From the NCBI GenBank assembly GCA_000002435.2, contig CM018792.1: DNA of 64,000 nucleotides; one strand, 5' to 3'. Below, piece by piece: positions 15,092 through 52,953 of this stretch (position 1 is the first letter of the stretch; each line of letters starts with the position of its first letter). Below the pieces are notes generated by a model, which was given only the letters and a program-made list of their open reading frames with translations, made no database searches and had not been told where the DNA came from. Source of the stretch: Giardia intestinalis. Its lineage: Eukaryota. Made by a program: the position numbers and the translations under genes.

Positions 15092-15163
15092 CCGGAATAG
15101 CTCAGCGGTAGAGCGCTGCACTTGTAATGCAGTGGTCGCGGGTTCAATTCCCGCTTTCGGCTT
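15092..15163 (+). tRNA. tRNA-Thr (anticodon UGU).
   Basis: Hand-folded cloverleaf. Acceptor stem GCCGGAA/TTTCGGC with one G-U pair. D arm GCTC-AGCGGTA-GAGC. Anticodon stem CTGCA/TGCAG with loop CTTGTAA, giving anticodon TGT. Variable loop TGGTC. T arm GCGGG-TTCAATT-CCCGC. Discriminator T. 72 nt, no intron. Confidence 0.8.
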
Positions 15164-15187
15164 TTCAGTGGGCCTTACAGGTTACAG

Positions 15188-15991: not shown

Positions 15992-16424
15992 ATGCATGAT
16001 GGTGCGTCTCACTAACGCTGGCCCGTTCTTTGGGTGTGCTGCAAGTCTGTCCTTCTTTTCCGGACGTGCATGCACTCCCACGAGGAACCTACAATTCTGG
16101 ATGCAGTGAAGGGGCCGATTACACGTCAGCCCTAGCAGCCCATGAGAGCCGCCTCCTGCAGACCTCTGGCCCAGGTTATACTGAGGACGCTATCGTAGAC
16201 ACAGATCTTTAGAAATCCTCATCCAACTTGAGTGCCTGAAGGAGTCTTAGTCTCGAGCATTATGCAATCTAACCACCATCGTTCTCGGCTCCAGCTGATC
16301 TTTCCCAATACAAGAGACATCGGGGACCCGTCGCCCAATTCGCACTCACAGTCGCTGTCTCCTGCCAATGGGCGCACCTACTCGAGCTTTCTCCACAATC
16401 GCCACCGCAGTAGATACATTTACA

Positions 16425-18452: not shown

Positions 18453-18919
18453 TTTAGATTCTATACATTTTTCGTGTGCATGGTGAAAAAGCGCAATAGC
18501 CTGTAACGTTATTAGCGTCCTGCCCTTAAGTAACTATTAGGTACATTTCAAAATGATCTGTGTTATTTTTAACATTAGTTTGTACTTAAGGTGCCTGTGG
18601 TATACACCCTTTGGAAGTCGTAACCTTTGTGTACAAGCTTCTCGGGCTTCCAACTATAGATTGTGACGATAACTATATGTAGTAAAATATTATTTAACAA
18701 TTCAACTGAATAACAAGTGAATTTAAGGCTGTAATCATGACAGAAAGCAACGTAGGTATGTCTTCAGAAAATGGTTGCGCTTCTACTTAGCCTGACTCTT
18801 TCGCATGATGCATGTTGCTCTAACACAATAACCACGTTTGGCTGTGTTTCACTCGCCTCAACCCGATCTATATTGCTAACGTACTAATTGCAACATTCTA
18901 TGTATGGACAAGAGCCGCT

Positions 18920-35331: not shown

Positions 35332-35699
35332 TATATTTATTTTAAGAAGAGATTTACTCCGTGTTAACAGACGAGCTTGCCACCCGCTGCCCGAGCAGGC
35401 CCGCTGGGGCCTCTCCCCCGCCCTGCGCGGTTGACCCCGAGAGCCTGGAGGCCGCCCGATTCTGGGGAGGGGAGGGGTGTCGCGCCTCCTCGCTCTGAGC
35501 GTCGTGACCTTGCTCTTGCGACACCGTCTGGGCTTCTCCTTTCTCTCACTCAGCCCCCTTGGGGCCAACTTCTGTATGGAGTGGAAAGCAGTGATCTTGG
35601 CCACGTAGCCTAGGGCCTTGGTACTCTATGACGAAGATTGCATACGCCATGAACCTCGGGATGGCCCGAAGCTCACCGGATACTTTCTTGTCATCTCGT

Positions 35700-37751
35700 G
35701 GAGCGGGTGTCCGTCCCACTATCAAGGGTGTGCTCCCCGTATGCCTCTATCTTGGAGTTAGAGTACGCACTCATGGATGCCGGCGGACAGCTCCCATGCG
35801 TTGGTGCCGAGGAAGAGGTCCAGCCCTGGTTTGCCTTCCCGCTCGACCCGTCCTTCTGCTCATGGACCACAGCGCGCCTCTTGTGCAGTGCTAGGAGACG
35901 CATACCGACAGACATTGCGCCTTGCCACGTCACTGGCCGGATCTTCCTGCTCGCGGTTGGCATGCGGCTCCTCGTCTGTCTGAACAAGGCAGTGGGGGTT
36001 GGAGTGGCAGAACTAGAGCGTGTTTGCCAGAGGCGCTAGTCTGCCGGCTAGAGGCGGAGTCGAGCGATGCCTGCCCAGAGATGCTCGCTCGGCTGCGAGG
36101 AGCACTGCAGGGGGTTCCACGAGCGCGGGAAGGCTCCCTCCCCTAGAAGCCCCGAGGGCCCTCGCGTCCCCGAGTTCAGTCTCCAGGGGCTTTGCGGGCA
36201 TATGCGACGATCTGGGCGCAAGAGCCCTGGGTGGTCTCGAACTCCGGACGCACGCTTTCACCAGGGTTTCGCACCCGAGCGTCCTCAGATACCACCGGGT
36301 AATCAGAACGAGCTGCTTTGTCTACACAACCATGGACCGCGGCCACAGAAGTCTAGGACAACTCCTCCTTGAGCACATGCAGGCCGACGAGCCGGTCGCT
36401 GAGGGCCTGGTGTTGTCCATCATGGAGCAGCTTTCTACCGGGCTTACCTACCTCCATGACGTCTGCTGGGAGGACGCCAGCGGAGCGCCCTGCCAGGGAA
36501 TCGTCCACTAGAGCCTCACGCCCGCCGACGCCCTCATTAGACAGGACGAACAGCGCGTCGTGCTCGCAGACTTCGCGTCCACAGAAACGCTCTGCACAGT
36601 GGCAGTGCGGAGGCAGAGGGCCCCGCGTACACGGATCCTGAAGCCCTCAGATGGCGCGGCCTCCGATCTCTGGGCCCTTGGTGCTATCGCATGCGAGCCT
36701 GCCACTTTGAAGGGGCCGAGCTTCCTGGACGGGTAAGACGCAAAGGCCCCTTTGTCGCCGGATGGAAGCCGAATCTGGGCCTTGTTGTGAAGGATCTCGT
36801 GTGGGATGTCCTCGGGAGGGTCTTTGCCTCAGACCCCGAGTGGTGACCAACAGCCACCAAGCTCGCCAGCCTGCTTCTGCGTGCGGGACGTCTGCTGTGG
36901 GCCCGGATCTCCAGGCCGGCGAGTTGGCAAGCACGGGCGAGTCTCTGCGGCCAGTGCCGAGTCTGTCCTTTCGAGGCAGGGCCCGAAGATGCCGCTCAGC
37001 ATATCAGAGGCATTGGCGCATCCATCGGGCCGTTCCACCAAAGGGCGGGAGCAGCACACTGCAGACGGGCACGGGGCTTCCATCGAATCGACCGACCAGG
37101 TTGCAGCGAGCGGCACGAGGTCCCTATCCTTCCGGGTCCCTGCGAAGGACTCCTCGTGGACCCGGCTGATGCGCGCTGCCGTTACTGGAGATCTCAAGAC
37201 GGCACAGAAGCACCTTGGTGAAAAGGACAAGAAGAACGAGGCGGCGACGCGGTGTACACTCCTGCCGTCAAGGCCGGACAGGGGCCGATGCTGGAGCTCC
37301 TTGACCTTACGGATAAGGCCGGGTCACGGCGCTCATGAGGGCTGCGGACAGAGGAGACGCAGAGGCAGTGAGGCTTCTGGTGAAGCACGAGGACGGCATG
37401 AGGGATGACGATGATTGACGGCGCTCATGATAGCAGCACGGTATCGCCATCCGGAATGCGTTAAGCTTGCTAGAGAGGGAAGCATGTATGACAGGCATAA
37501 GAGGCGCGACTGCTCTTGTGCATGCGGCGGCCAACGGCAGTGCCTTGTGCATACCCTTCCTCTTGGAGAAGGAGGCATGTGTGCAGGACGCCAGTGGCTG
37601 GTCTGCTCTCGCGTGGGCAACATATCTAGATAAGCCAGAGTGTGCGAAGCTTCTTATGGGGGAGGAGGACATAGAAATCACCCCCATAGCTGGAGGGTAT
37701 GCCGACGATGGCAACAATGGCAAGACCGGTGGCGACTATTGTCGACTATGA
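35700..37751 (+). pseudogene. NEK-type Ser/Thr kinase plus ankyrin-repeat pseudogene with a nonsense codon in the catalytic loop.
   Basis: Kinase subdomains IV-VIa in ORF 36020..36511 (HPSVLRYHRVIRTSCFVYTTMDRGHRSLGQLLLEHM...IMEQLSTGLTYLH). The frame then reads GIVH-TAG-SLTPADALIRQDEQRVVLADFA...ASDLWALGAI, that is HRDLKP, DFG and subdomain IX, with TAG (36496-36498) replacing the Arg of HRD and DFG changed to DFA. Ankyrin repeats are spread over three frames (WTRLMRAAVTGDLKTAQKHL; TALMIAARYRHPECVKLA; GATALVHAAANGSALCIPFLLEKEACVQDASGWSALAWATYLDKPECAKLL). Confidence 0.7.
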
Positions 37752-40301
37752 CGACTATGATTACTCGACTCCTATGACCACGATTATCATGCTCCTGACG
37801 ATCATGACGTTTACGATTGCTACGGTTACTAGTATTCTGATAACTATGATTTTCATAATCCTTTTGAATGCGATTCCTTATGTGGCGCCACAGCTCTTGA
37901 GCTAGAGGATGGATCATCGAGGGATAGTGGAGGTTCTTTCAACGCGACTGCAGGGTACTAACGGGCTTCTCTACAGGCACACCTTTATACAACTGCCAAT
38001 CTGTTTGCAGCAGTAAAGCTGCGTCACCGCAGTGGCCTAGGGGCTGCTCGATCTATAATTCCGCAAGGGGCAGGCTGATAAAGCAAAACTCTGCGGCCTA
38101 ATTTGTGCCCTGTACAGCCAGCAAGCAAATCCTCTGGACCGCCAGCAGAGCTGCTCGTTCAGCGGAGCGCCGTCTCGTAGGGAGAAGCGGGACGTCACTG
38201 TCAGGCCCAAGCGAGAGTGCCGGCGCCATGCGAACAGTCTCCGGTCCCTGGAGGCCGCCCCGGGTCACCGAAGGCAGGGTATCCTATTGCACAGTGCAGG
38301 CGCGTAGCAGCTAACAGAACCGGCGCAAGTGGCGGCCGAGCGGTGGCTTTTGCGCCTCTCCGAAGTGGGGAGACAGTGTCCAGAAGGCGCGAGGTTCCCG
38401 CGATTTGTCTGGAGCCAGCCGGGAGCGTCACAGAAAAAGCATCTTGAGGGCTCCCTAGGTGCAGTGGCAAAGGGACGTCCGCTGCTTCTTCGCCAGCGGC
38501 TTGCCCGGTGGACCACAGGGCCTCCTAGGCCGCCAAGCGCGAACACAGCTGCGATGAGTGGCTACTGTACGCCCTTGTGACACAGAGTGGACGTGCAGGA
38601 TGCCAGCGACGTGCTGAGGAAGGCTTTATTACCCTCCTGCTGTCTGTGCACCTGCTCCTGGTAAGGATGCTGAGCCCATGCTTACAAGCCACGGCCCCTT
38701 TGAGAGTGGCCAAAGCCGGTGCTCGAGCAGAGATAGATGGCTGCCTCGCAGATCTCGAATCGCTGCGCATGCCGGTCCAGAGAGACACCGATCAGCCCGT
38801 CACTAGGGATGAGGATCCAGGCATGAGAATCGCCAGCCTCCCGCGCCTCGGATGGACCCAGGCGATGGTGGTACGGGGCTAAGGGTCCTGCTACATCCGG
38901 GCAGACCAGGCATTGCCTCTGAACATGACATCAGGTCAGGGCCCTGTCGCGGACAGAGGGGCGAGGCTAGAAGCCAGCCGAGGCGGAGCAGCTGCATAGA
39001 CGGGAGCGCAGGTTATTATGGCAGCAGACTTCCACAGACGAGGGAGCCCGCGCTCTACTCCAGGATGAAACAGCGACGCCCCAGAGTGCGGCCCCGAACC
39101 ATGCTGCACCCCTCCTTTTGTGGCGCGGGAAGACTGCATGCACTTCAACCACGATGCATCCGGCCTTGAACACTGTGCGGAAAGACAGGCGGCCAGTGCG
39201 ATTCATGCGACGCAAGGAAGATGCCTCACCTTCTGATGCCCTACAATGCGGGGAACATAGCCCCCTGCGCACGGGCTGTCTGCTTAAGGACGGCAAGCAC
39301 ATGGAACCAGGCATGAACGGAACCGGGTCTTGATAGCGGCACGGCTGTCTTCAAGGGAAGGGTGATCTCTTGTCTCTTTAAGCAAGACGTGCTGGATCGC
39401 ACAAGCTTACGATTGGGTGAGGAAGGCTTCTGCATGCAACTCTCTGGCATGACCTAGCTGCAAACAGGCGGCAGCGAAGAGCGGACAGCGGGCTCCAGTC
39501 GTGCGGAAGGAGGATGCACCTGCCTGAGGCTACACGCAGTCATCAGGCGGGGCGTTCTCTGCAGAGGTTACGTGCTATGCAGGGTCGTGTCAAACCGAAG
39601 GACCACTCTTAGATGAGCCAGACCAAGGTGCCCCCATCCGCGCGAGACAGGCCTGTCAGATATATGGCATGCCTGCGAAAGTGAGCGCCGACAGGCAGGG
39701 GCCCGGGTAGACCTGGCGTCCTGGCCCAGAGAGTGAACGAGGACGGCCCGCGATACTTGTCCAGCCGAAGTATGAACGCTATGATGCCCCGGGTTGGACA
39801 AGCAACTCTTAGCGCCCCCCCTGAGAGGCTGCAGAGGACGGGCTTCTGGATGGAGGGACGACCCCAGCCAGGCAGACGTGATCACAGAAGAAGGGGCGCT
39901 GGAACCCGGAACAGTGGCTGACGACTGCGTGTCTGCGCGATGCAGTGCCCACTACTGTCAGTCGGCACACGGCGGTCGGCAGGACGCAGAGCTGCAGAGT
40001 GCTGGAGGCGCCGAGCGAGGCCAGTCTCGCTCATGGGACAGAGGCTGCCTGAGCCCCGCAGTCCTGCGAGCCTCTGGACGGTGGCAACAAGAGACCTTTC
40101 ATGGTACGCATCTGCCTGGATGGCGGCGTGATCCCAGAGCCGGCATCGTACCACTTCACGAGCATCACGATCGCTGTGTCCCCCACGATGGTCACTCGGG
40201 CAGTAGTCAGGTGCAGGGCATGGCGGCTCTTCCCTGTCCCCCAGCAGGACCTCGTAAGAGTAGAGTAGATTGTATAACGATGGACGCGTTTACTATCTAA
40301 G

Positions 40302-42524
40302 TCACGCCTTGCCCCTACATATGAACCACCAGCAGAGGAAGCCCACGAGGCCCCCAACGACGACGATGACTGCGACGGAGATGCCCGCGATGGCCCCCGT
40401 GGAGAGCCCGCTCTTATTCGTGCTTCCGCCAGTATTGTCGCCGGTATTATCATCCGTTTCGAAACATATGAACTTGCCGTTAACAGGTGTCGCGCACTGC
40501 CTGCATCCAGCCAGCCCCTCGGAGCACTTTCTGCACGGCCCATTACTACTACTCTCCTTGTAATATCCAGGAGTACATACCTTGCATGTAGTAGCATCGG
40601 CTTCGCAGGTGTAGCAACTTTCGTGGCATTTCGTGCAGGCACTGCCGACCTTCACATATCCGTCCATGCACCTAGAACAGTCCCTAGTGGTGGTGCACTC
40701 AGCGCACCCAGTGTAGCAAGCCACAAGGCTCTCGCCTGTCAGGCTAAATCCTTCTTCCGGAGTCTTGCAGGTTCCGCCTGTACTCTGCGCACTCAAGCAC
40801 ACTGTCGACCCCGGAAGCTGGCTGGTGGAGTAGCAGCCGCCGTTCATCTTGAAGAAGCCGTCTGCGCAGACATTGCACACGCCACCAGTAATGCTTCCAT
40901 CTTTGCACTTATCTGTGCGACTGGTTTTAACAGCACAGACGCCGTTCTGGGGATACTCGTTGTTTTGACTACAGACAGAGCAGTATTTTGTCCCCTCAAC
41001 AGTCAGACCGCACTCCCTGCACTTGCCTGTGCCTGTGCCCGCCGCGCACTCGGCCCCACATGTGCCAGTGTTTCCTGTGGATCCGTAGGTGAGCGCGCTT
41101 CCAGACTTACAGCTTGTGCAATCATTGGCAGTATTTCCGCTACATGTCTTACAGCTGGAATCGCAAGGGGAGCACGCTTCGCCGTAGAAGCCGTCCTTAC
41201 AGAGACCGCACCCGCCATTTTCACTGCACGCGAGACAGTTGGCGACCTCGCACTTCTTGCAGACCCTCTTGTTGCCCTCTGTGCTACTGTAGTAGCCTAG
41301 AATATATTCGCAGTGGTCTATGCACTGGTTTGTTGGCGTCAGATACTTGTTGGACAGACATTCGGTGCAGATCTCTTTGTTTGTTTGTGCACCACTGCAT
41401 GCCTTACAATCCTGAGTACTGCATGGATTTGAAGGGGAATCATTTGGCACGCATTGTGTTTCTTCTTCGTCAAGTTTAAATCCATCATTGCACGTGCAAG
41501 TATTCTCGGTCTTGGCTTCTGAGTTATCAGGGCAGCTACTAATGCACGACTTCTTTCCGAGTCCAAATACCATATTTTCCTTACACGCTGTGCAGGTAAC
41601 GGAGGTGTCACTTTTGGTGCATGTTTTGCAGTTCTCAAACGTTCCTGCCGTGCACGGCTTGCACGTCTTCGGCTCCTCATCGTCGGCGTAGTGGGTGTTT
41701 CCACTCGTGCACGCTTCCTCAGTCACGCACTCGCCTGCCTGATCCTGTGACTGCGCCTTCTTTAGGTACGGCTTGTCCTCATTGCAAGAGGTGCACTTCG
41801 TAGCCTCGGTCTCACAGGTCTTGCATGTCTCAGCGCACTTGGTGCATTTTTTACTGCCTGTTGCATCGACGAAGAAGCCTGCAGTACTCGTGCACTCATG
41901 TTCCGTCACACACGACGTCACGTCGCCGTCCGTCTTAACAATCCTCGCGGTTTGCTGCGCATCAGGGCCGCACGCAGTACACTTAGCAACTCCACTGGCC
42001 TCTACCGTTAATTGTAATCCGTCACAGGCAGTGCACCCATCCACGCCCGTGTACTTCTTATTGCCAGTAAGCGTCACGCCTATCGAATCTCCGCACGAAA
42101 CAACCGAGTCGTGCGCATTATCAGCGCCCGGCGGTAGAAAGTATCCTTCCGTAGCCTGTGTGCACTTACCACCAGCTGCTCCTCCACACATCACATTGCC
42201 AGGCTCAATAGCTTGTTCGTAACACCCGCCCTTGTACATAAAAGTCTGACCAGCGCACTTTGCACAGGTCTCATCAGATGCAGTATTTCCATCGGCAGCT
42301 GTACATTTATCTGTTACATCATCTTTGCCTACACATTTTCCATTGATAGGAACAAATCCTGTGTTACATTGAGAGCAATACAATTTACCACCGATCAGAA
42401 CGTTGCATGCGTTTGCTGCACAATTGGCGTTATTCGCGCAGTGAGCTTCCCGCGCACGTTCTGCTACTTTTTCTGCCCATGCAATCTGGATGGCTAGGCC
42501 CGCGAATATAAAACTGCCGAACAT
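40302..42524 (-). CDS. vsp: Variant-specific surface protein (VSP), 740 aa, copy 1 of an identical pair.
   Basis: Signal peptide MFGSFIFAGLAIQIAWA. About 12% Cys with many CXXC motifs. C-terminal TM plus the invariant Giardia VSP tail GGLVGFLCWWFICRGKA. AGTAAAC polyA signal 7 nt after the stop (40288..40294 on the minus strand). Confidence 0.93.
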   Translation of the reverse strand: MFGSFIFAGLAIQIAWAEKVAERAREAHCANNANCAANACNVLIGGKLYCSQCNTGFVPINGKCVGKDDVTDKCTAADGNTASDETCAKCAGQTFMYKGGCYEQAIEPGNVMCGGAAGGKCTQATEGYFLPPGADNAHDSVVSCGDSIGVTLTGNKKYTGVDGCTACDGLQLTVEASGVAKCTACGPDAQQTARIVKTDGDVTSCVTEHECTSTAGFFVDATGSKKCTKCAETCKTCETEATKCTSCNEDKPYLKKAQSQDQAGECVTEEACTSGNTHYADDEEPKTCKPCTAGTFENCKTCTKSDTSVTCTACKENMVFGLGKKSCISSCPDNSEAKTENTCTCNDGFKLDEEETQCVPNDSPSNPCSTQDCKACSGAQTNKEICTECLSNKYLTPTNQCIDHCEYILGYYSSTEGNKRVCKKCEVANCLACSENGGCGLCKDGFYGEACSPCDSSCKTCSGNTANDCTSCKSGSALTYGSTGNTGTCGAECAAGTGTGKCRECGLTVEGTKYCSVCSQNNEYPQNGVCAVKTSRTDKCKDGSITGGVCNVCADGFFKMNGGCYSTSQLPGSTVCLSAQSTGGTCKTPEEGFSLTGESLVACYTGCAECTTTRDCSRCMDGYVKVGSACTKCHESCYTCEADATTCKVCTPGYYKESSSNGPCRKCSEGLAGCRQCATPVNGKFICFETDDNTGDNTGGSTNKSGLSTGAIAGISVAVIVVVGGLVGFLCWWFICRGKA

Positions 42525-43439
42525 TAACCAATCTGGTAGATTGATAGGAACAGAATCGCGATATATTCAGCCAATCCGTGTGACTGACACATGATGATGA
42601 TGATGATTTACTCCACCCACCGGTTGCTTCCAGTGGTGTGCTGCTGGGGCCCTCGCCTGCAGGCGCTGTCCGCAAATCTCGCGAGTAAATTCCCGCTCAA
42701 TTTTTGGCGATGTCCGGAGATGAGGGTTGGTCACGGGCCGTAACGATAATCACAGCGGTTGTAAGGAGGAGCTATCTGCATTCCTCGGCTGTTCCGTGGG
42801 CATGCGCACACAACCGGACCTGAAACGAAGGAGAGCCCGCAAGGACCCGATCCACATCATGAACGCAAGATCGTACCTTCGGGCCCCCAGAGAGCAAGCC
42901 GTGAGTCTCTACTTGGGAGACCACTCCAAAGACGCTTGCCCTCTCGGCAGGACACACACGCTGGCTCTGTGGCCTACCGTGCAAGAGTGCCAACAATCAA
43001 CCGAGCACCTGAGAGAAGCAAATGATAACAGACACAGAGTACTAGGTGACGACAAACTGATCATTCCATCCCATATACCGAACCAGACAGCTGCCATGCT
43101 CATCCACCAGGGTGCAGCATGATCGCGAGCATCGAGCAGGCCGGGACTGGGGTAGCGCTCCCCGCTATCAGGGGCCTGAACGCCTTGGTAGGAAACTGCT
43201 AGAAGACTCAAGCAACACAGCAGAGCAGACCCAGAGCAAGGCGGACCCAGACCCCGAGAAGGCGAGACGCCGGATAGCAAACAGGGTGAACAACGCGCTG
43301 AGTTTCGGGGCAGTTGCCAAGGCCCTCCGCGCCCTTGATGACACGCCCACGATAGACAAGCCGGAGAAGGCCGACCGCCCTCAGCGCGCTACACCTGTGC
43401 GTCCCCCCGAAGGCTACGTTGGCCTTGACTACCCTCCAT

Positions 43440-45110
43440 CGATGAGCTCGACGGGCTGGAGTGGCAACCGAAGAAGAAATGAGGAAGGCTCTGTTTGAGA
43501 CTCTCAACAAGAAGGCCTCGGGCCGGTCCAGCTCAAGGCGATGAAGCAGAGCGACAGCTTCGTGAAGTACCTCACGCAGGCATACAACGAGCTGACCACC
43601 CACCCCGAGGCGATGCCAGAGGTGATGGCCATGCTCGAGTTCCGGGCGATCCTCATCCCGAAGGAGTCCGACGGATACCGCCCGATCGCGATAGGCGAGA
43701 CGGTGACAAACATCTTCCACCGCGTCCTGCTGAAGGGCTGATCAGGCATGCCAACTACCTCTTGTGCGAACAGATCGCCTTCATGCAGAACGCATACGCG
43801 GTAGGCGTGAGGAGGGCCCACGAGCTCATCAGCAGGACAGGAGCACGCCGTCTCCCTCGACACAAAGAACGCCCTCAACTCGCTCCCGAGGGCGGAGGTC
43901 GTCAGAGCCCTGAACGAGGCGGGCGTCCCGAAGGTCCTGGTCGACTACATCGGGGACTTCCTCGACCTGAGGCACAGCCGGGACGTGAAGTGCGAGGTCT
44001 GCGGCGTCCCCCAGGGCGACCCGCTCAGCATGCTCCTCTTCTGCATGGCCACCGAGCGCCTCCTGAGACGCCTCAGGGAGAGGGGCATCACCTTCCTTGC
44101 CTATGCGGACGACATCGTGGCGTTCCACGACGAGGCCTACCCAGCAGGCGTGATAACACAGCTGGCCATGGGCCTGACGATCAGGAGCGACAATGCAAGT
44201 CCACCATGGCGGGCGAGGAGGTGACCTTCCCCAACCACCCGGTGTCCCCCACTCCTGCCAGTCTCGCGCCGAAGGCCATCGCAGGTGCCGAGACTGCCCT
44301 GAGGAAGATTGAGAACGCCCCCATAACCACCCACCAGAAGCTCATCCTGATGTCACTCTGCGTGGTCCCGATGGTGAACTACGCCCCCCTGGTCGAGATA
44401 ACATCGGATAAGGCGGACTACAAGGAGCTGACAGATATCGCACAAGGCTTCAGCAAGCTAACCAGCAGAAGCTGCGATCGCCTGGTCGACTTCCTGGCGT
44501 ACCAAAGGAGAAGGGCGGCCCGGGCCTGCTCATGCCGGGGTTCTACCACGACGAGCTGCGGAGAGCATGGGCCTCCCTGGACGTCAACAAGGGGACCAGA
44601 GACCCGGTGGAGCTGCCGGTGGAAGGCCAGGCACTGCAAGGGAAGGGGACCTACTCCAACCGCCTCCTCACGCATACACCAGCTTCCGGACAGAGCGGCG
44701 GCGTGCTGACCGAGGAGGAAAGGGCCCTGAAGCAGAGAGATGGCTCGATCATGGGGCAGACAAGAGGCACCTGCCCGGGCTGCCACACGGCAAGGACCCT
44801 CGACCGCGACATGATCGTCACGTGCCTGTACCTCCGCGTCTCAGGGAAGTTCAACGCAGAGCTGGAGGTCAAGACCCACAGCCACCTCAGCGGCCAGAAC
44901 CAGAAGCCCGACATCTGGTTCGTCGACAAGTGCAAGGCGATAGATGTGGGTGTCATCCAGCCCCGCCAGATGGACGCCTACTACAACGAGAAGGTCAAGA
45001 AGTACAGGGACGGGACGCTCCCGATCATCTACGGGACAGACGGATCCCTCCACCCAAGTCCAAGGGGCACCTCGAGGAGCTCCACGTGGACCTCTGTCCG
45101 GGCTGCCTTC
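43440..45110 (+). mobile_element. Degenerate non-LTR retrotransposon (Giardia GilD/Genie-like: RT plus CCHC plus REL-endonuclease) with at least 3 frameshifts, filling the palindrome spacer.
   Basis: RT motif 0 (EEEMRKALFETLNKKASGP..QLKAMK, about 43470-43560, frameshifted). Motifs 1-2 (AILIPKESDGYRPIAIGETVTNIFHRVLLK, 43541..43741). Motif A (VSLDTKNALNSLPRAEVV), B (CGVPQGDPLSMLLF) and C (FLAYADDIVAF) in a second frame (about 43840..44222). Thumb in a third frame (ALRKIENAPITTHQKLILMSLCVVPMVNYAPLVE). Then CPGCH...C and a PD-(D/E)xK block (KPDIWFVDKCKAIDVGV) in ORF 44532..45359. No frame is intact across them. Confidence 0.8.
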
Positions 45111-45766
45111 GCCATCGCCCACATGGCTGCAAAGGCGAACGAGCACCCGACGAAGCTGATCAGACGGGCCGGGCCGAAAGCCTGGCCACCCAGAGCGACC
45201 GTCTCCTGTCATCCTACTTCTGACAACCGAATGAGTCCATCCCCGGGACCTGTCGACAACGACCGAGAAGGGGCGCAAGACTGGACACACAACCGAGTTG
45301 AATCCCAACCAGAAGAGAAAGCCCCGCTAGCTGCTGCTGATATACATGGACAGTATTGAGAATGACAACAAAGACCAGAGCTTCACTCACCGTGAAGGGA
45401 GAGCAAGGAGAGGCACCCTAGTAGACCAGCAAGCCTGCAGGACGGCTTGATCTCTGAAAGAACCGATGTGCACACCCAGTCTGAGCTCACGCCCACGGAA
45501 CAGCCGAGGAATGCAGATAGCTCCTCCCTTCCACTACTGTGGTCTTTGTATTGATACACGACCAACCCTCGTCTCCGGACTAGTCAGGGACTGAGCAAGA
45601 GCTTACCCGTGAGATCTCTGGACCATACCTGCAGGCGAGGGCCCCAGCAGCACACCACTGGAAGCAACCGGTGGGTGGAGTAAATCATCATCATCATCAT
45701 GTGTCAGTCACACGGATTGGCTGAATATATCGCGATTCTGTTCCTATCAATCTACCAGATTGGTTA

Positions 45767-47989
45767 ATGTTCGGCAGTTTTATATTCGCGGGCCTAGCCA
45801 TCCAGATTGCATGGGCAGAAAAAGTAGCAGAACGTGCGCGGGAAGCTCACTGCGCGAATAACGCCAATTGTGCAGCAAACGCATGCAACGTTCTGATCGG
45901 TGGTAAATTGTATTGCTCTCAATGTAACACAGGATTTGTTCCTATCAATGGAAAATGTGTAGGCAAAGATGATGTAACAGATAAATGTACAGCTGCCGAT
46001 GGAAATACTGCATCTGATGAGACCTGTGCAAAGTGCGCTGGTCAGACTTTTATGTACAAGGGCGGGTGTTACGAACAAGCTATTGAGCCTGGCAATGTGA
46101 TGTGTGGAGGAGCAGCTGGTGGTAAGTGCACACAGGCTACGGAAGGATACTTTCTACCGCCGGGCGCTGATAATGCGCACGACTCGGTTGTTTCGTGCGG
46201 AGATTCGATAGGCGTGACGCTTACTGGCAATAAGAAGTACACGGGCGTGGATGGGTGCACTGCCTGTGACGGATTACAATTAACGGTAGAGGCCAGTGGA
46301 GTTGCTAAGTGTACTGCGTGCGGCCCTGATGCGCAGCAAACCGCGAGGATTGTTAAGACGGACGGCGACGTGACGTCGTGTGTGACGGAACATGAGTGCA
46401 CGAGTACTGCAGGCTTCTTCGTCGATGCAACAGGCAGTAAAAAATGCACCAAGTGCGCTGAGACATGCAAGACCTGTGAGACCGAGGCTACGAAGTGCAC
46501 CTCTTGCAATGAGGACAAGCCGTACCTAAAGAAGGCGCAGTCACAGGATCAGGCAGGCGAGTGCGTGACTGAGGAAGCGTGCACGAGTGGAAACACCCAC
46601 TACGCCGACGATGAGGAGCCGAAGACGTGCAAGCCGTGCACGGCAGGAACGTTTGAGAACTGCAAAACATGCACCAAAAGTGACACCTCCGTTACCTGCA
46701 CAGCGTGTAAGGAAAATATGGTATTTGGACTCGGAAAGAAGTCGTGCATTAGTAGCTGCCCTGATAACTCAGAAGCCAAGACCGAGAATACTTGCACGTG
46801 CAATGATGGATTTAAACTTGACGAAGAAGAAACACAATGCGTGCCAAATGATTCCCCTTCAAATCCATGCAGTACTCAGGATTGTAAGGCATGCAGTGGT
46901 GCACAAACAAACAAAGAGATCTGCACCGAATGTCTGTCCAACAAGTATCTGACGCCAACAAACCAGTGCATAGACCACTGCGAATATATTCTAGGCTACT
47001 ACAGTAGCACAGAGGGCAACAAGAGGGTCTGCAAGAAGTGCGAGGTCGCCAACTGTCTCGCGTGCAGTGAAAATGGCGGGTGCGGTCTCTGTAAGGACGG
47101 CTTCTACGGCGAAGCGTGCTCCCCTTGCGATTCCAGCTGTAAGACATGTAGCGGAAATACTGCCAATGATTGCACAAGCTGTAAGTCTGGAAGCGCGCTC
47201 ACCTACGGATCCACAGGAAACACTGGCACATGTGGGGCCGAGTGCGCGGCGGGCACAGGCACAGGCAAGTGCAGGGAGTGCGGTCTGACTGTTGAGGGGA
47301 CAAAATACTGCTCTGTCTGTAGTCAAAACAACGAGTATCCCCAGAACGGCGTCTGTGCTGTTAAAACCAGTCGCACAGATAAGTGCAAAGATGGAAGCAT
47401 TACTGGTGGCGTGTGCAATGTCTGCGCAGACGGCTTCTTCAAGATGAACGGCGGCTGCTACTCCACCAGCCAGCTTCCGGGGTCGACAGTGTGCTTGAGT
47501 GCGCAGAGTACAGGCGGAACCTGCAAGACTCCGGAAGAAGGATTTAGCCTGACAGGCGAGAGCCTTGTGGCTTGCTACACTGGGTGCGCTGAGTGCACCA
47601 CCACTAGGGACTGTTCTAGGTGCATGGACGGATATGTGAAGGTCGGCAGTGCCTGCACGAAATGCCACGAAAGTTGCTACACCTGCGAAGCCGATGCTAC
47701 TACATGCAAGGTATGTACTCCTGGATATTACAAGGAGAGTAGTAGTAATGGGCCGTGCAGAAAGTGCTCCGAGGGGCTGGCTGGATGCAGGCAGTGCGCG
47801 ACACCTGTTAACGGCAAGTTCATATGTTTCGAAACGGATGATAATACCGGCGACAATACTGGCGGAAGCACGAATAAGAGCGGGCTCTCCACGGGGGCCA
47901 TCGCGGGCATCTCCGTCGCAGTCATCGTCGTCGTTGGGGGCCTCGTGGGCTTCCTCTGCTGGTGGTTCATATGTAGGGGCAAGGCGTGA
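45767..47989 (+). CDS. vsp: Variant-specific surface protein (VSP), 740 aa, copy 2. Identical to 40302..42524 and head-to-head with it.
   Basis: Identical 740-aa translation ending ...FLCWWFICRGKA. AGTAAAC polyA signal at 47997..48003. Confidence 0.93.
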   Translation: MFGSFIFAGLAIQIAWAEKVAERAREAHCANNANCAANACNVLIGGKLYCSQCNTGFVPINGKCVGKDDVTDKCTAADGNTASDETCAKCAGQTFMYKGGCYEQAIEPGNVMCGGAAGGKCTQATEGYFLPPGADNAHDSVVSCGDSIGVTLTGNKKYTGVDGCTACDGLQLTVEASGVAKCTACGPDAQQTARIVKTDGDVTSCVTEHECTSTAGFFVDATGSKKCTKCAETCKTCETEATKCTSCNEDKPYLKKAQSQDQAGECVTEEACTSGNTHYADDEEPKTCKPCTAGTFENCKTCTKSDTSVTCTACKENMVFGLGKKSCISSCPDNSEAKTENTCTCNDGFKLDEEETQCVPNDSPSNPCSTQDCKACSGAQTNKEICTECLSNKYLTPTNQCIDHCEYILGYYSSTEGNKRVCKKCEVANCLACSENGGCGLCKDGFYGEACSPCDSSCKTCSGNTANDCTSCKSGSALTYGSTGNTGTCGAECAAGTGTGKCRECGLTVEGTKYCSVCSQNNEYPQNGVCAVKTSRTDKCKDGSITGGVCNVCADGFFKMNGGCYSTSQLPGSTVCLSAQSTGGTCKTPEEGFSLTGESLVACYTGCAECTTTRDCSRCMDGYVKVGSACTKCHESCYTCEADATTCKVCTPGYYKESSSNGPCRKCSEGLAGCRQCATPVNGKFICFETDDNTGDNTGGSTNKSGLSTGAIAGISVAVIVVVGGLVGFLCWWFICRGKA

Positions 47990-47996
47990 CTTAGAT

Positions 47997-48003
47997 AGTA
48001 AAC
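47997..48003 (+). terminator. Giardia polyadenylation signal AGTAAAC (AGTRAAY) 7 nt after the VSP stop. Its mirror is at 40288..40294 on the minus strand.
   Basis: Exact match to the AGTRAAY consensus, which normally lies within about 10-30 nt downstream of the stop codon in Giardia mRNAs. Confidence 0.7.
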
Positions 48004-50539
48004 GCGTCCATCGTTATACAATCTACTCTACTCTTACGAGGTCCTGCTGGGGGACAGGGAAGAGCCGCCATGCCCTGCACCTGACTACTGCCCGAGTGAC
48101 CATCGTGGGGGACACAGCGATCGTGATGCTCGTGAAGTGGTACGATGCCGGCTCTGGGATCACGCCGCCATCCAGGCAGATGCGTACCATGAAAGGTCTC
48201 TTGTTGCCACCGTCCAGAGGCTCGCAGGACTGCGGGGCTCAGGCAGCCTCTGTCCCATGAGCGAGACTGGCCTCGCTCGGCGCCTCCAGCACTCTGCAGC
48301 TCTGCGTCCTGCCGACCGCCGTGTGCCGACTGACAGTAGTGGGCACTGCATCGCGCAGACACGCAGTCGTCAGCCACTGTTCCGGGTTCCAGCGCCCCTT
48401 CTTCTGTGATCACGTCTGCCTGGCTGGGGTCGTCCCTCCATCCAGAAGCCCGTCCTCTGCAGCCTCTCAGGGGGGGCGCTAAGAGTTGCTTGTCCAACCC
48501 GGGGCATCATAGCGTTCATACTTCGGCTGGACAAGTATCGCGGGCCGTCCTCGTTCACTCTCTGGGCCAGGACGCCAGGTCTACCCGGGCCCCTGCCTGT
48601 CGGCGCTCACTTTCGCAGGCATGCCATATATCTGACAGGCCTGTCTCGCGCGGATGGGGGCACCTTGGTCTGGCTCATCTAAGAGTGGTCCTTCGGTTTG
48701 ACACGACCCTGCATAGCACGTAACCTCTGCAGAGAACGCCCCGCCTGATGACTGCGTGTAGCCTCAGGCAGGTGCATCCTCCTTCCGCACGACTGGAGCC
48801 CGCTGTCCGCTCTTCGCTGCCGCCTGTTTGCAGCTAGGTCATGCCAGAGAGTTGCATGCAGAAGCCTTCCTCACCCAATCGTAAGCTTGTGCGATCCAGC
48901 ACGTCTTGCTTAAAGAGACAAGAGATCACCCTTCCCTTGAAGACAGCCGTGCCGCTATCAAGACCCGGTTCCGTTCATGCCTGGTTCCATGTGCTTGCCG
49001 TCCTTAAGCAGACAGCCCGTGCGCAGGGGGCTATGTTCCCCGCATTGTAGGGCATCAGAAGGTGAGGCATCTTCCTTGCGTCGCATGAATCGCACTGGCC
49101 GCCTGTCTTTCCGCACAGTGTTCAAGGCCGGATGCATCGTGGTTGAAGTGCATGCAGTCTTCCCGCGCCACAAAAGGAGGGGTGCAGCATGGTTCGGGGC
49201 CGCACTCTGGGGCGTCGCTGTTTCATCCTGGAGTAGAGCGCGGGCTCCCTCGTCTGTGGAAGTCTGCTGCCATAATAACCTGCGCTCCCGTCTATGCAGC
49301 TGCTCCGCCTCGGCTGGCTTCTAGCCTCGCCCCTCTGTCCGCGACAGGGCCCTGACCTGATGTCATGTTCAGAGGCAATGCCTGGTCTGCCCGGATGTAG
49401 CAGGACCCTTAGCCCCGTACCACCATCGCCTGGGTCCATCCGAGGCGCGGGAGGCTGGCGATTCTCATGCCTGGATCCTCATCCCTAGTGACGGGCTGAT
49501 CGGTGTCTCTCTGGACCGGCATGCGCAGCGATTCGAGATCTGCGAGGCAGCCATCTATCTCTGCTCGAGCACCGGCTTTGGCCACTCTCAAAGGGGCCGT
49601 GGCTTGTAAGCATGGGCTCAGCATCCTTACCAGGAGCAGGTGCACAGACAGCAGGAGGGTAATAAAGCCTTCCTCAGCACGTCGCTGGCATCCTGCACGT
49701 CCACTCTGTGTCACAAGGGCGTACAGTAGCCACTCATCGCAGCTGTGTTCGCGCTTGGCGGCCTAGGAGGCCCTGTGGTCCACCGGGCAAGCCGCTGGCG
49801 AAGAAGCAGCGGACGTCCCTTTGCCACTGCACCTAGGGAGCCCTCAAGATGCTTTTTCTGTGACGCTCCCGGCTGGCTCCAGACAAATCGCGGGAACCTC
49901 GCGCCTTCTGGACACTGTCTCCCCACTTCGGAGAGGCGCAAAAGCCACCGCTCGGCCGCCACTTGCGCCGGTTCTGTTAGCTGCTACGCGCCTGCACTGT
50001 GCAATAGGATACCCTGCCTTCGGTGACCCGGGGCGGCCTCCAGGGACCGGAGACTGTTCGCATGGCGCCGGCACTCTCGCTTGGGCCTGACAGTGACGTC
50101 CCGCTTCTCCCTACGAGACGGCGCTCCGCTGAACGAGCAGCTCTGCTGGCGGTCCAGAGGATTTGCTTGCTGGCTGTACAGGGCACAAATTAGGCCGCAG
50201 AGTTTTGCTTTATCAGCCTGCCCCTTGCGGAATTATAGATCGAGCAGCCCCTAGGCCACTGCGGTGACGCAGCTTTACTGCTGCAAACAGATTGGCAGTT
50301 GTATAAAGGTGTGCCTGTAGAGAAGCCCGTTAGTACCCTGCAGTCGCGTTGAAAGAACCTCCACTATCCCTCGATGATCCATCCTCTAGCTCAAGAGCTG
50401 TGGCGCCACATAAGGAATCGCATTCAAAAGGATTATGAAAATCATAGTTATCAGAATACTAGTAACCGTAGCAATCGTAAACGTCATGATCGTCAGGAGC
50501 ATGATAATCGTGGTCATAGGAGTCGAGTAATCATAGTCG

Positions 50540-52591
50540 TCATAGTCGACAATAGTCGCCACCGGTCTTGCCATTGTTGCCATCGTCGGCATACCCTCCA
50601 GCTATGGGGGTGATTTCTATGTCCTCCTCCCCCATAAGAAGCTTCGCACACTCTGGCTTATCTAGATATGTTGCCCACGCGAGAGCAGACCAGCCACTGG
50701 CGTCCTGCACACATGCCTCCTTCTCCAAGAGGAAGGGTATGCACAAGGCACTGCCGTTGGCCGCCGCATGCACAAGAGCAGTCGCGCCTCTTATGCCTGT
50801 CATACATGCTTCCCTCTCTAGCAAGCTTAACGCATTCCGGATGGCGATACCGTGCTGCTATCATGAGCGCCGTCAATCATCGTCATCCCTCATGCCGTCC
50901 TCGTGCTTCACCAGAAGCCTCACTGCCTCTGCGTCTCCTCTGTCCGCAGCCCTCATGAGCGCCGTGACCCGGCCTTATCCGTAAGGTCAAGGAGCTCCAG
51001 CATCGGCCCCTGTCCGGCCTTGACGGCAGGAGTGTACACCGCGTCGCCGCCTCGTTCTTCTTGTCCTTTTCACCAAGGTGCTTCTGTGCCGTCTTGAGAT
51101 CTCCAGTAACGGCAGCGCGCATCAGCCGGGTCCACGAGGAGTCCTTCGCAGGGACCCGGAAGGATAGGGACCTCGTGCCGCTCGCTGCAACCTGGTCGGT
51201 CGATTCGATGGAAGCCCCGTGCCCGTCTGCAGTGTGCTGCTCCCGCCCTTTGGTGGAACGGCCCGATGGATGCGCCAATGCCTCTGATATGCTGAGCGGC
51301 ATCTTCGGGCCCTGCCTCGAAAGGACAGACTCGGCACTGGCCGCAGAGACTCGCCCGTGCTTGCCAACTCGCCGGCCTGGAGATCCGGGCCCACAGCAGA
51401 CGTCCCGCACGCAGAAGCAGGCTGGCGAGCTTGGTGGCTGTTGGTCACCACTCGGGGTCTGAGGCAAAGACCCTCCCGAGGACATCCCACACGAGATCCT
51501 TCACAACAAGGCCCAGATTCGGCTTCCATCCGGCGACAAAGGGGCCTTTGCGTCTTACCCGTCCAGGAAGCTCGGCCCCTTCAAAGTGGCAGGCTCGCAT
51601 GCGATAGCACCAAGGGCCCAGAGATCGGAGGCCGCGCCATCTGAGGGCTTCAGGATCCGTGTACGCGGGGCCCTCTGCCTCCGCACTGCCACTGTGCAGA
51701 GCGTTTCTGTGGACGCGAAGTCTGCGAGCACGACGCGCTGTTCGTCCTGTCTAATGAGGGCGTCGGCGGGCGTGAGGCTCTAGTGGACGATTCCCTGGCA
51801 GGGCGCTCCGCTGGCGTCCTCCCAGCAGACGTCATGGAGGTAGGTAAGCCCGGTAGAAAGCTGCTCCATGATGGACAACACCAGGCCCTCAGCGACCGGC
51901 TCGTCGGCCTGCATGTGCTCAAGGAGGAGTTGTCCTAGACTTCTGTGGCCGCGGTCCATGGTTGTGTAGACAAAGCAGCTCGTTCTGATTACCCGGTGGT
52001 ATCTGAGGACGCTCGGGTGCGAAACCCTGGTGAAAGCGTGCGTCCGGAGTTCGAGACCACCCAGGGCTCTTGCGCCCAGATCGTCGCATATGCCCGCAAA
52101 GCCCCTGGAGACTGAACTCGGGGACGCGAGGGCCCTCGGGGCTTCTAGGGGAGGGAGCCTTCCCGCGCTCGTGGAACCCCCTGCAGTGCTCCTCGCAGCC
52201 GAGCGAGCATCTCTGGGCAGGCATCGCTCGACTCCGCCTCTAGCCGGCAGACTAGCGCCTCTGGCAAACACGCTCTAGTTCTGCCACTCCAACCCCCACT
52301 GCCTTGTTCAGACAGACGAGGAGCCGCATGCCAACCGCGAGCAGGAAGATCCGGCCAGTGACGTGGCAAGGCGCAATGTCTGTCGGTATGCGTCTCCTAG
52401 CACTGCACAAGAGGCGCGCTGTGGTCCATGAGCAGAAGGACGGGTCGAGCGGGAAGGCAAACCAGGGCTGGACCTCTTCCTCGGCACCAACGCATGGGAG
52501 CTGTCCGCCGGCATCCATGAGTGCGTACTCTAACTCCAAGATAGAGGCATACGGGGAGCACACCCTTGATAGTGGGACGGACACCCGCTCC
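50540..52591 (-). pseudogene. Second copy, identical and mirrored, of the NEK kinase plus ankyrin pseudogene.
   Basis: Mirror of 35700..37751. The same TAG sits in the HRD position (ORF 51780..52271(-) ends GIVH-stop). Confidence 0.7.
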
Positions 52592-52953
52592 ACGAGATGA
52601 CAAGAAAGTATCCGGTGAGCTTCGGGCCATCCCGAGGTTCATGGCGTATGCAATCTTCGTCATAGAGTACCAAGGCCCTAGGCTACGTGGCCAAGATCAC
52701 TGCTTTCCACTCCATACAGAAGTTGGCCCCAAGGGGGCTGAGTGAGAGAAAGGAGAAGCCCAGACGGTGTCGCAAGAGCAAGGTCACGACGCTCAGAGCG
52801 AGGAGGCGCGACACCCCTCCCCTCCCCAGAATCGGGCGGCCTCCAGGCTCTCGGGGTCAACCGCGCAGGGCGGGGGAGAGGCCCCAGCGGGCCTGCTCGG
52901 GCAGCGGGTGGCAAGCAAATTCTACAAAGATTTACTTCTAAGAACGTAAAGGA

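What the first reader, a model, noticed from the sequence alone, without database searches (positions are those of the whole stretch)
35700..37751. NEK kinase plus ankyrin pseudogene killed by a TAG in the HRD catalytic-loop position and a DFG-to-DFA change, duplicated in both arms, with a third decayed copy next to another Cys-rich surface-protein gene
The kinase reads GIVH-TAG-SLTPADALIRQDEQRVVLADFA. This is a recognisable HRDLKP...DFG core with a nonsense codon where Arg should be and a mutated DFG, followed by ankyrin repeats scattered across frames. Giardia has a huge NEK expansion in which many members are catalytically dead but still encoded as intact ORFs. Here the ORF itself is destroyed, yet the sequence is kept at 100% identity in both arms. 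An about 85% identical fragment of the same family lies at 1100-3050, directly downstream of the HCMP gene at 1-1065. Both instances pair a Cys-rich surface-antigen gene with a decayed NEK-ankyrin repeat, suggesting these travel together as a duplication unit in variable regions.
Basis: partly seen in the sequence, partly recalled or inferred. Interest (0 to 1): 0.5.

Follow-up and report, generated by a model that had tools for sequence, protein, structure and literature searches.

The report
Dead Giardia Nek kinase in VSP palindrome
This is a badly decayed copy of a Giardia Nek kinase-ankyrin gene that was copied, already dead, into both arms of a published inverted duplication of a surface-antigen (VSP) gene, so it is an ordinary example of known Giardia genome turnover.

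Summary
The core observation holds. Window 36206-37667 (+), with a probable tail to 37941, is a relic of a Giardia Nek kinase plus ankyrin-repeat gene. It carries 2 in-frame stops (TAG 36509 at the HRD arginine, TGA 36844) and 9-10 frameshifts, reads DFA instead of DFG, and has no detectable N-terminal lobe. It lies in a palindrome whose arms are 100% identical over 7,289 bp (35375-42663 and 52916-45628). More than 100 independent short-read contigs carry the same broken ORF pieces, so the TAG is not a sequencing error.

The interpretation needs correcting in three places.
- The catalytic loop reads H*SLTP, and the closest intact relative reads YRSLTP, so the lineage was probably already a dead kinase.
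- The perfect identity covers coding and non-coding DNA alike. It reflects duplication or gene conversion, not preservation of the pseudogene.
- The "third copy, about 85% identical, 1100-3050" is only a 97-aa kinase C-lobe relic (1172-1462, minus strand) plus about 236 bp at 72% identity. It has no ankyrin repeats.

The window is G. intestinalis WB chromosome 4. The VSP pair (GL50803_50229/d50229, 740 aa, 3242 bp apart, reverse-transcriptase remnant between) is listed in Xu et al. 2020. Nek-GL4 pseudogenes, and Nek/VSP/HCMP clustering in GC-rich variable islands, are already published. Interest is low.

The parts
36206..37667 (+). Core of the Nek (GL4-like) kinase plus ankyrin pseudogene, left-arm copy. 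It contains kinase subdomains III-XI, a linker and about 6 TALM-type ankyrin repeats.
   Evidence: tblastn E = 3e-44. The frameshift-aware alignment gives 41-43% aa identity to P0001/P0005, with 2 stops and 9-10 frameshifts. Pfam Ank_2 E = 1.5e-26; Pkinase E = 7e-5, below the gathering score.
36509..36511 (+). In-frame TAG opposite the Arg of the HRD catalytic-loop motif. The loop reads H*SLTP.
36569..36577 (+). D-F-A in place of the DFG motif.
36844..36846 (+). Second in-frame stop (TGA), opposite the conserved Arg of the subdomain XI motif (E/K)RPTA.
37884..37941 (+). Probable C-terminal tail of the pseudogene (GATALEL / RMDHRGIVEVLS, with one frameshift). It lies beyond a low-complexity insertion at about 37700-37880.
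   Evidence: Several homologues' C-termini align at the same place. Scores are at or modestly above the shuffled maxima (39 vs 33, 37 vs 33, 33 vs 27). A 9-bp tandem repeat sits at 37733-37760.
50350..52085 (-). Identical twin of the pseudogene in the right arm. The twin of the TAG is at 51780-51782.
   Evidence: Arms are identical base for base, with position p mapping to 88291-p. tblastn hits are mirrored.
35375..42663 (.). Left palindrome arm (7,289 bp, 100% identical to the right arm). A further 147 bp to 42810 is homologous at only ~72%.
45628..52916 (.). Right palindrome arm.
40302..42524 (-). VSP gene, 740 aa, ending in CRGKA. It is one of GL50803_50229/d50229 (KAE8304422/KAE8304423).
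   Evidence: Xu et al. 2020 Table 2.
45767..47989 (+). Identical twin VSP gene. The two VSPs point away from each other and are 3,242 bp apart.
43811..44221 (+). Reverse-transcriptase remnant in the spacer (motifs GVPQGDPLS and YADD). Broken RT-like ORFs span about 43483-45356.
   Evidence: Pfam RVT_1 E = 1e-16. Sequence read. Listed as 'psiRT' in Xu et al. Table 2.
37942..40301 (.). 2.35 kb of GC-rich (61%) sequence inside each arm, between the pseudogene and the VSP 3' end. No recognisable gene.
   Evidence: No Pfam hit. No homologue among 5.8 billion proteins. No Rfam hit.
1172..1462 (-). Separate Nek kinase C-lobe relic (about 97 aa, subdomains VIII-XI, stop at 1291), 107 bp from the stop codon of the HCMP gene. 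It has no ankyrin repeats and no N-lobe.
   Evidence: tblastn E = 1.5e-14. Alignments. N-lobe test negative.
2666..2897 (-). About 236 bp, 72% identical to 35601-35827 (+), lying upstream of the kinase relic in both loci. It is non-coding or unrecognisable.
   Evidence: No protein homologue in any frame.
1..1065 (+). 3' part of a high-cysteine membrane protein (HCMP-like) gene, cut by the window edge.
   Evidence: Frame 1 is open from base 1, is rich in CXXC motifs, and ends in a TM tail ...FRRKQ. Pfam VSP E = 1.6e-8.

Best explanation
The feature is a non-functional, heavily decayed, unprocessed pseudogene of the fast-turning-over Giardia Nek-GL4 kinase-ankyrin family. It sits in a GC-rich variable island of G. 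intestinalis WB chromosome 4, between the Nop14 and insulinase-type metalloprotease genes. It does nothing itself.

It is present twice because it lies in the outer part of a 17.5-kb palindrome. The layout is 7.3-kb arm, 2.7-kb spacer with a reverse-transcriptase remnant, then 7.3-kb arm. The functional cargo of the palindrome is the identical, divergently oriented VSP pair GL50803_50229/d50229.

The gene was already dead when the arms were last made identical, because every stop and frameshift is shared. Before that it was probably already a pseudokinase lacking the catalytic Asp. The perfect arm identity is best explained by arm-to-arm gene conversion, or by a very recent re-duplication, laid over an older inverted duplication. 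The inner 147 bp of the arms are homologous but 28% diverged with a transition bias.

Shown: the pseudogene anatomy, the palindrome, the identity of the locus, and the reality of the lesions. Inferred: the order of events, gene conversion as the homogenising mechanism, and lack of function.
For: - Anatomy: 2 stops, 9-10 frameshifts, DFA, lost N-lobe. Homologues are Giardia Nek+ankyrin proteins of 700-860 aa, E down to 3.5e-124.
- Subfamily: homologues carrying the same motif strings are labelled Nek-GL4 in Manning et al. Table S1. That paper reports 30 Nek pseudogenes in WB, 29 of them GL4.
- Palindrome.
- Both junctions are real. Contig L009 joins Nop14 to the arm and L002 joins the metalloprotease to the arm, both 100% identical over 35375-38466.
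- The broken ORF pieces occur in 109-130 contigs.
- Locus identity: the VSP is KAE8304422/3 of WB chromosome 4. The 740 aa, 3242 bp and psiRT match Xu et al. Table 2. The RT remnant is verified.
- Consecutive protein accessions KAE8304420-24 leave none for the Nek region, which I infer means no protein-coding gene is annotated there.
- The inner arm ends show 41 differences in 147 bp, 29 transitions against 11 transversions by hand count.
- The island is 53-63% GC against ~45% for the flanking core genes, as published for such islands.
- Homology with assemblage E (P15) stops at 52922, six bases from the arm boundary.
Against: - No transcription or small-RNA data could be examined, so 'no function' is an inference from decay.
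- GL4 membership rests on the labels of homologues, not on a phylogeny.
- Gene conversion versus a recent second duplication cannot be separated without other isolates. The one other isolate available (DH, assemblage AII) covers only 419 bp of the arm.
- Every short-read contig stops at 38466. This could hide an arm or allelic difference that reference polishing removed.
Confidence: 0.88

Rival explanations
1. The gene is intact, and the stops and frameshifts are sequencing or assembly errors in a GC-rich repeat.
For: The region is 59% GC and repeated, which is hard to assemble. One Logan contig (L019) shows three 1-bp indels relative to the window.
Against: About 12 independent lesions are spread over 1.5 kb. 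Identical sequence comes from the PacBio-based reference and from many independent short-read assemblies. The N-lobe is undetectable. A low-complexity insertion sits in the C-terminal region.
Confidence: 0.01
2. The 100% identity of the two copies reflects selection on the pseudogene sequence itself, for example as a regulatory RNA or a recombination donor for live GL4 Neks.
For: Identity is perfect. Manning et al. list at least one Nek-GL4 pseudogene (114495_mod) among differentially expressed SAGE transcripts.
Against: Identity is equally perfect over all 7,289 bp, including 2.35 kb with no recognisable content. No Rfam family matches. The best intact relatives are only 41-43% identical in protein and 68-77% in DNA, too divergent for efficient homologous recombination or siRNA targeting. 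In the AII isolate DH the first 419 bp of the arm are 96.4% identical to WB, against 98.3% for the adjacent core genes, so the arm is not unusually conserved.
Confidence: 0.04
3. The palindrome is simply a very recent one-step inverted duplication, perhaps linked to the retroelement in the spacer, with no ongoing gene conversion.
For: There are zero differences in 7.3 kb. Four of the seven outward-facing VSP pairs in WB have an RT remnant between them, which hints at a recurrent formation mechanism. Adam et al. interpret identical pairs as recent duplications.
Against: The arms continue for 147 bp at only 72% identity with a transition excess. This points to an older homologous duplication whose outer part was later homogenised. 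The same junction exists in assemblage AII, whose flanking core genes differ by 1.7%, so the island is not brand new.
Confidence: 0.3
4. The Nek relic next to the HCMP gene (1172-1462) and the palindrome copy descend from one mobile 'Cys-rich gene plus Nek' duplication unit.
For: Both loci have, in the same order and orientation, a ~236-bp segment (72% identical) followed by a Nek kinase relic. In both, the Nek 3' end faces the 3' end of a Cys-rich gene.
Against: The kinase relics are only ~42% identical over 38 aa. The spacing between the shared segment and the kinase differs by ~400 bp. The third locus has no ankyrin repeats and no N-lobe. The HCMP and the VSP are only ~27% identical in protein. 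No other DNA similarity links the loci. A third Cys-rich gene at 16425-18452 has no Nek relic nearby.
Confidence: 0.1

Closest known systems
Nek-GL4 kinase pseudogenes of Giardia WB (Manning et al. 2011, Genome Biol 12:R66; PMC3218828)
   Same: Both have a kinase domain with the GL4-type insert between YLH and the catalytic loop, a coiled-coil-type linker and C-terminal TALM-ankyrin repeats. Both are disrupted by stops and frameshifts and belong to the rapidly turning-over, strain-variable family. Many live members already lack catalytic residues.
   Different: This copy is much more decayed than the example I could read: ~12 lesions and no detectable N-lobe, against a single frameshift in GL50803_42657. 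It is present as two identical copies. I could not find its peptide strings in the held (truncated) copy of their Table S1, so I cannot say whether it is one of their 30.
Identical inverted VSP gene pairs of Giardia WB (Adam et al. 2010, PMC2996952; Xu et al. 2020, PMC7000408, Table 2: chr 4, 50229/d50229)
   Same: This is that pair: 740 aa, outward-facing, 3,242 bp apart, with an RT remnant between. The 5' flanks are identical up to an abrupt divergence point 139 nt above the start codon, within the 139-729 bp range Adam et al. report.
   Different: The identical sequence continues 4,927 bp beyond the VSP stop codon and takes in the Nek pseudogene. In the 2010 description identity ended 139-729 bp from the coding regions. 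The 'd' locus tag marks a gene added as a duplicate in the 2020 annotation. I infer that the long identical arms were collapsed before long reads.
GC-rich non-syntenic islands of Giardia carrying VSP, HCMP, Nek, Protein 21.1 and RT genes (Jerlstrom-Hultqvist et al. 2010, PMC3091692)
   Same: The island is 53-63% GC within ~45% GC core genes. It contains a VSP, a Nek relic and an RT relic, and homology with P15 ends at its boundary.
   Different: Nothing substantive. This is one instance of that pattern.
Large near-identical palindromes kept uniform by arm-to-arm gene conversion (for example human Y-chromosome ampliconic palindromes; from my own knowledge)
   Same: Kilobase-scale arms of ~100% identity surround a unique spacer, with a sharp identity boundary.
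   Different: Gene conversion is only inferred here. The scale is far smaller, and the organism is a tetraploid, binucleate protist.

Membership tests
Giardia Nek kinase + ankyrin family (Nek-GL4) | Protein-kinase domain homologous to Giardia Neks | tested here: met
   tblastn E = 3e-44 to P0001 and 5e-35 to P0005. phmmer E = 3.5e-124. Pfam Pkinase is only 22.7 bits, below the gathering score of 31.7, because of decay.
Giardia Nek kinase + ankyrin family (Nek-GL4) | C-terminal array of (TALM-type) ankyrin repeats | tested here: met
   Ank_2 E = 1.5e-26 and Ank E = 4.5e-17. About 6 repeats, including VTALMRAA and LTALMIAA, at 37150-37667.
Giardia Nek kinase + ankyrin family (Nek-GL4) | Placement in subfamily GL4 rather than another Nek group | tested here: inconclusive
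   Sequences in Manning Table S1 that share the motif strings of P0002 and P0009 are labelled Nek-GL4. The YLH-to-catalytic-loop insert resembles the GL4 rows of their alignment. No phylogeny was run.
Giardia Nek kinase + ankyrin family (Nek-GL4) | Intact open reading frame (a gene rather than a pseudogene) | tested here: not met
   2 in-frame stops and 9-10 frameshifts. The longest ORF piece is 200 aa.
Catalytically competent protein kinase | VAIK Lys, HRD catalytic Asp and DFG Asp-Phe-Gly present | tested here: not met
   The VAIK region is undetectable. The catalytic loop is H*SLTP (Asp to Ser, Lys to Thr) and DFG is DFA.
Identical inverted VSP pair (Adam 2010 / Xu 2020) | Two identical VSP ORFs ending in CRGKA, in inverted orientation, separated by about 2-4 kb | tested here: met
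   40302-42524 (-) and 45767-47989 (+) are 100% identical and 3,242 bp apart. This matches Table 2 of PMC7000408.
Identical inverted VSP pair (Adam 2010 / Xu 2020) | Flanks identical up to an abrupt divergence point a few hundred bp from the ORFs | tested here: not met
   The 5' side fits (139 nt). The 3' side does not: identity runs 4,927 bp beyond the stop codon to 35375/52916. This is a longer-armed variant of the published description, not a reason to exclude the pair, which the literature names.
Non-LTR retrotransposon remnant (psiRT) in the spacer | Reverse-transcriptase domain with a YxDD motif | tested here: met
   RVT_1 E = 1e-16 at 43811-44221, and YADD is read in the ORF. The family (GilM/GilT/GilD) was not tested.
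High-cysteine membrane protein (HCMP), ORF 1-1065 | CXXC-rich ectodomain and C-terminal TM segment, without the VSP CRGKA tail | tested here: met
   Translation. Pfam VSP E = 1.6e-8. The tail is ...VFRRKQ.

The most novel reading that the evidence does not exclude
The 17.5-kb perfect palindrome might be transcribed through its arms to give long hairpin RNA. In that case the dead Nek and the VSP sequences in the arms would feed Giardia's RNAi machinery. They would contribute to VSP silencing or dampen related GL4 Nek transcripts, which would make the pseudogene a small-RNA source rather than inert DNA. Nothing here tests this. The low similarity to live Neks (68-77% DNA identity) argues against effects on Nek paralogues.
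Probability: 0.03. Interest if true: 0.55.

Novelty: new member of a known kind. Interest (0 to 1): 0.12.

Why it matters
It matters little beyond annotation. The locus shows that at least one of the published identical VSP pairs sits in a much longer palindrome (7.3-kb arms) than the early descriptions suggested, and that dead neighbouring genes are carried along and kept identical. That is a useful caution: perfect identity between Giardia repeats says nothing about function. If arm sequences from other isolates were compared, the locus could serve as a small natural test of gene conversion in a tetraploid organism for which no sexual cycle has been directly observed (my own knowledge). The Nek relic appears to have no protein entry in the current WB record and could be added as a pseudogene.

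Tried and rejected
- **N-terminal lobe.** I aligned the first 62-100 residues of 11 homologues against 35400-36330 with frameshifts allowed. Scores were no better than shuffled controls, so I do not claim the N-lobe is present.
- **N-lobe or ankyrins at the third locus.** None were found.
- **The 2.35 kb between the pseudogene and the VSP (37942-40301).** Pfam on the longer ORFs, a search of all ORFs of at least 75 aa against 5.8 billion proteins, Rfam and tblastx against the rest of the window all found nothing.
- **The ~240-bp segment shared with 2640-2904.** A six-frame protein search found nothing. It is absent upstream of two intact relatives.
- **Positional orthologue in assemblage E.** The P15 contig loses similarity at the arm boundary, and its remaining 1.6 kb has no Nek or VSP. 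The best P15 homologue (P0002) sits in an unrelated neighbourhood.
- **Manning et al.'s pseudogene list.** Eight peptide strings from the two relics were not found, but the stored supplement is truncated.
- **Exact-protein look-ups.** The VSP and the 168-aa ORF returned nothing from the contig index.
- **Variant ORF clusters (P0032, P0036).** These turned out to be WB-type sequence with different start calls or 1-bp indels, so they gave no between-isolate comparison.
Full report
**Where the window comes from**

The 740-aa ORFs at 40302-42524 (-) and 45767-47989 (+) end in CRGKA. They are exactly the protein KAE8304422/KAE8304423, annotated 'VSP' in Giardia intestinalis WB clone C6, on a 2,761,001-bp record. 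Neighbouring ORFs are exact matches to GL50803_005749 and to the insulinase-family metalloprotease KAE8304424.

Xu et al. 2020 (PMC7000408, Table 2) list a chromosome 4 pair 50229/d50229. It is outward-facing, 740 aa, 3242 bp apart, with a reverse-transcriptase remnant between. The window shows exactly 3,242 bp between the two ORFs, and I confirmed the remnant (Pfam RVT_1, E = 1e-16, at 43811-44221, with a YADD motif). The locus is therefore a published VSP inverted pair.

**The observation**

The quoted string is read exactly: GIVH, TAG (36509-36511), SLTPADALIRQDEQRVVLADFA.

A search with a stitched translation returned only Giardia Nek kinase-ankyrin and ankyrin proteins at the top. E-values went down to 3.5e-124 and the hits were 700-860 aa long. 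tblastn of those proteins back onto the window hit 36257-37495 with E = 3e-44, and hit the mirror position in the other arm.

I wrote a frameshift-tolerant protein-to-DNA aligner. Against P0005 and P0001 it gives these results:
- Homology runs from 36206 to 37667, at 41-43% amino-acid identity.
- There are two in-frame stops. TAG 36509 lies opposite the Arg of HRD. TGA 36844 lies opposite the Arg of the subdomain-XI (E/K)RPTA motif.
- There are 9-10 frameshifts, four of them inside the ankyrin region.
- DFG reads DFA.

Pfam sees the ankyrins strongly (Ank_2, E = 1.5e-26). It sees the kinase only weakly (22.7 bits, below the gathering score of 31.7).

The first ~58 residues of the kinase (Gly-loop, VAIK) cannot be found. 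Alignments of 11 homologues' N-termini against 35400-36215 score no better than shuffled controls. So 35700-36205 of the reported interval is not demonstrably part of the gene.

At the other end, a canonical C-terminal tail (GATALEL / RMDHRGIVEVLS) appears at 37884-37941, after a low-complexity insertion containing a 9-bp tandem repeat. The relic probably ends near 37941 rather than 37751.

**The catalytic loop was probably already dead**

The loop is H*SLTP: Ser where the catalytic Asp should be, and Thr for the Lys. The closest intact relative, P0001, reads YRSLTP at that place and has Arg at the VAIK lysine position. Manning et al.'s table shows xLTP/xITP loops in Neks annotated as dead. 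The ancestor was therefore most likely already one of Giardia's many pseudokinases, not an active HRDLKP kinase killed by the TAG.

**Is the TAG real?**

Yes, on three lines of evidence.
- The broken ORF pieces (163, 200 and 87 aa) occur as exact sequences in 120, 109 and 130 contigs of independent short-read assemblies.
- Contig L009 runs from the Nop14 gene into the left arm. Contig L002 runs from the metalloprotease gene into the right arm. Both are 100% identical to the window through 38466, and further contigs agree.
- About a dozen lesions cannot all be errors.

The same contigs show that both junctions exist, so the duplication is not an assembly artefact.

**The two arms**

A self-comparison gives one inverted repeat, 35375-42810 against 52916-45482. 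Base by base, 35375-42663 and 52916-45628 are identical over 7,289 bp. The next 147 bp towards the spacer are still alignable but carry 41 differences, which I counted by hand as 29 transitions, 11 transversions and 1 indel.

Each arm contains, in order:
- about 830 bp of unrecognisable sequence;
- the Nek relic;
- 2.35 kb with no detectable gene or RNA;
- the VSP gene.

Identity is uniform across live, dead and anonymous DNA, so it says nothing about constraint on the pseudogene. All lesions are shared by both arms, so the gene died before the arms were last made identical.

The sharp step from 100% to 72% identity suggests an older inverted duplication whose outer part has since been homogenised. 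Arm-to-arm gene conversion is the likeliest cause, and a second, recent duplication is the alternative. I cannot separate the two without arm sequences from other isolates. The only other isolate reachable (DH, assemblage AII) shares the junction but covers just 419 bp of the arm. That stretch is 96.4% identical to WB, against 98.3% for the adjacent core genes.

**The 'third copy'**

The claim of an ~85% identical fragment at 1100-3050 is not borne out.
- DNA similarity to the arm is limited to 103 bp at 80.6%, or 236 bp at 71.6% with more sensitive settings. It links 35601-35827 to 2897-2666 in inverted orientation. This stretch lies upstream of the kinase in both loci and matches no protein in any frame.
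- The only Nek-like sequence is a 97-aa C-lobe relic on the minus strand at 1172-1462, with a stop at 1291 (E = 1.5e-14). It is about 42% identical to the main relic over 38 aa.
- No N-lobe and no ankyrin repeats are present. Only 107 bp separate the relic from the stop of the Cys-rich gene.

A Nek relic does lie beside a second Cys-rich gene, but it is a different, independent relic, not a copy of one unit. A further Cys-rich gene at 16425-18452 has no Nek relic nearby.

**What is already known**

- Manning et al. 2011 (PMC3218828) found 30 Nek pseudogenes in WB. [quoted passage not shown]
- Sequences in their Table S1 that share the motif strings of my homologues P0002 and P0009 are labelled Nek-GL4, so this relic is very probably GL4. 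I could not find its peptides in the truncated stored copy of their table.
- Adam et al. 2010 (PMC2996952) described 14 identical inverted VSP pairs whose flanks diverge abruptly 139-729 bp from the ORFs. Here the 5' side fits (139 nt), but the 3' side stays identical for 4,927 bp.
- This pair carries a 'd' locus tag, which Xu et al. added to duplicated genes in the 2020 annotation. They note that their long-read assembly reconstructs duplicated regions more completely. I infer that these long arms were collapsed in the earlier assembly.
- Jerlstrom-Hultqvist et al. 2010 (PMC3091692) and Xu et al. report that VSP, HCMP, Nek, Protein 21.1 and RT genes cluster at synteny breaks in GC-rich islands. 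This island is 53-63% GC against ~45% in its flanks, and similarity to P15 stops six bases from the arm boundary.
- The run of protein accessions KAE8304420-24 across the locus leaves none for the Nek region. I infer it is not annotated as protein-coding, but I could not check for a pseudogene feature.

**Verdict**

This is a genuine but ordinary pseudogene of a family known for pseudogenes. It is carried passively in a published VSP palindrome. The reading of the catalytic loop, the meaning of the 100% identity, and the third copy were not. The only modestly new points are the length of the identical arms and the evidence for homogenisation over an older duplication.

Noticed in passing
window 38466 (twin 49825): Every independent short-read contig that enters the arms stops at exactly this base (L002, L009, L017, L018, from different sequencing runs). 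The reference continues with identical arms. This suggests an assembly-graph branch there, either an allelic or arm-specific variant or a k-mer shared with another genomic site.
   Followed up: partly
window 42664-42810 vs 45482-45627: The inner ends of the arms drop abruptly from 100% to ~72% identity. There are 41 differences in 147 bp, 29 of them transitions by hand count. This looks like an old duplication whose outer 7.3 kb has been homogenised.
   Followed up: partly
window 43483-45356 (+), core 43811-44221: The spacer carries broken reverse-transcriptase ORFs (GVPQGDPLS...YADD; Pfam RVT_1 E = 1e-16), all on the + strand, so the spacer is asymmetric. Xu et al. report RT remnants in 4 of 7 outward-facing VSP pairs, which hints at a link between the element and palindrome formation.
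   Followed up: partly
window 37942-40301 (twin 47990-50349): This is 2.35 kb of 61% GC sequence with no ORF over 171 aa, no Pfam or Rfam match, and no homologue among 5.8 billion proteins. Its origin is unknown.
   Followed up: yes
window 35601-35827 (+) and 2666-2897 (-): A ~236-bp stretch, 72% identical between the two loci, lies upstream of both Nek relics. It is better conserved than the kinase relics themselves. No frame stands out and no protein homologue was found.
   Followed up: yes
window 37700-37880: A low-complexity, relatively AT-rich insertion sits inside the C-terminal part of the pseudogene and is absent from intact homologues. It includes a 9-bp tandem repeat (CGACTATGA x3) at 37733-37760.
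   Followed up: partly
L013 13403-15010 (P15 contig ACVC01000687.1): In assemblage E, similarity to WB ends six bases from the palindrome boundary (window 52922). The remaining 1.6 kb of that contig is GC-rich, with no Nek, VSP or other recognisable gene.
   Followed up: partly
window 14000-18500: A second, smaller GC-elevated patch (52.7% at 14-16 kb) contains tRNA-Thr(TGT) at 15091-15162. It lies next to a 675-aa Cys-rich, VSP-like gene at 16425-18452 (-), which has no Nek relic nearby.
   Followed up: no
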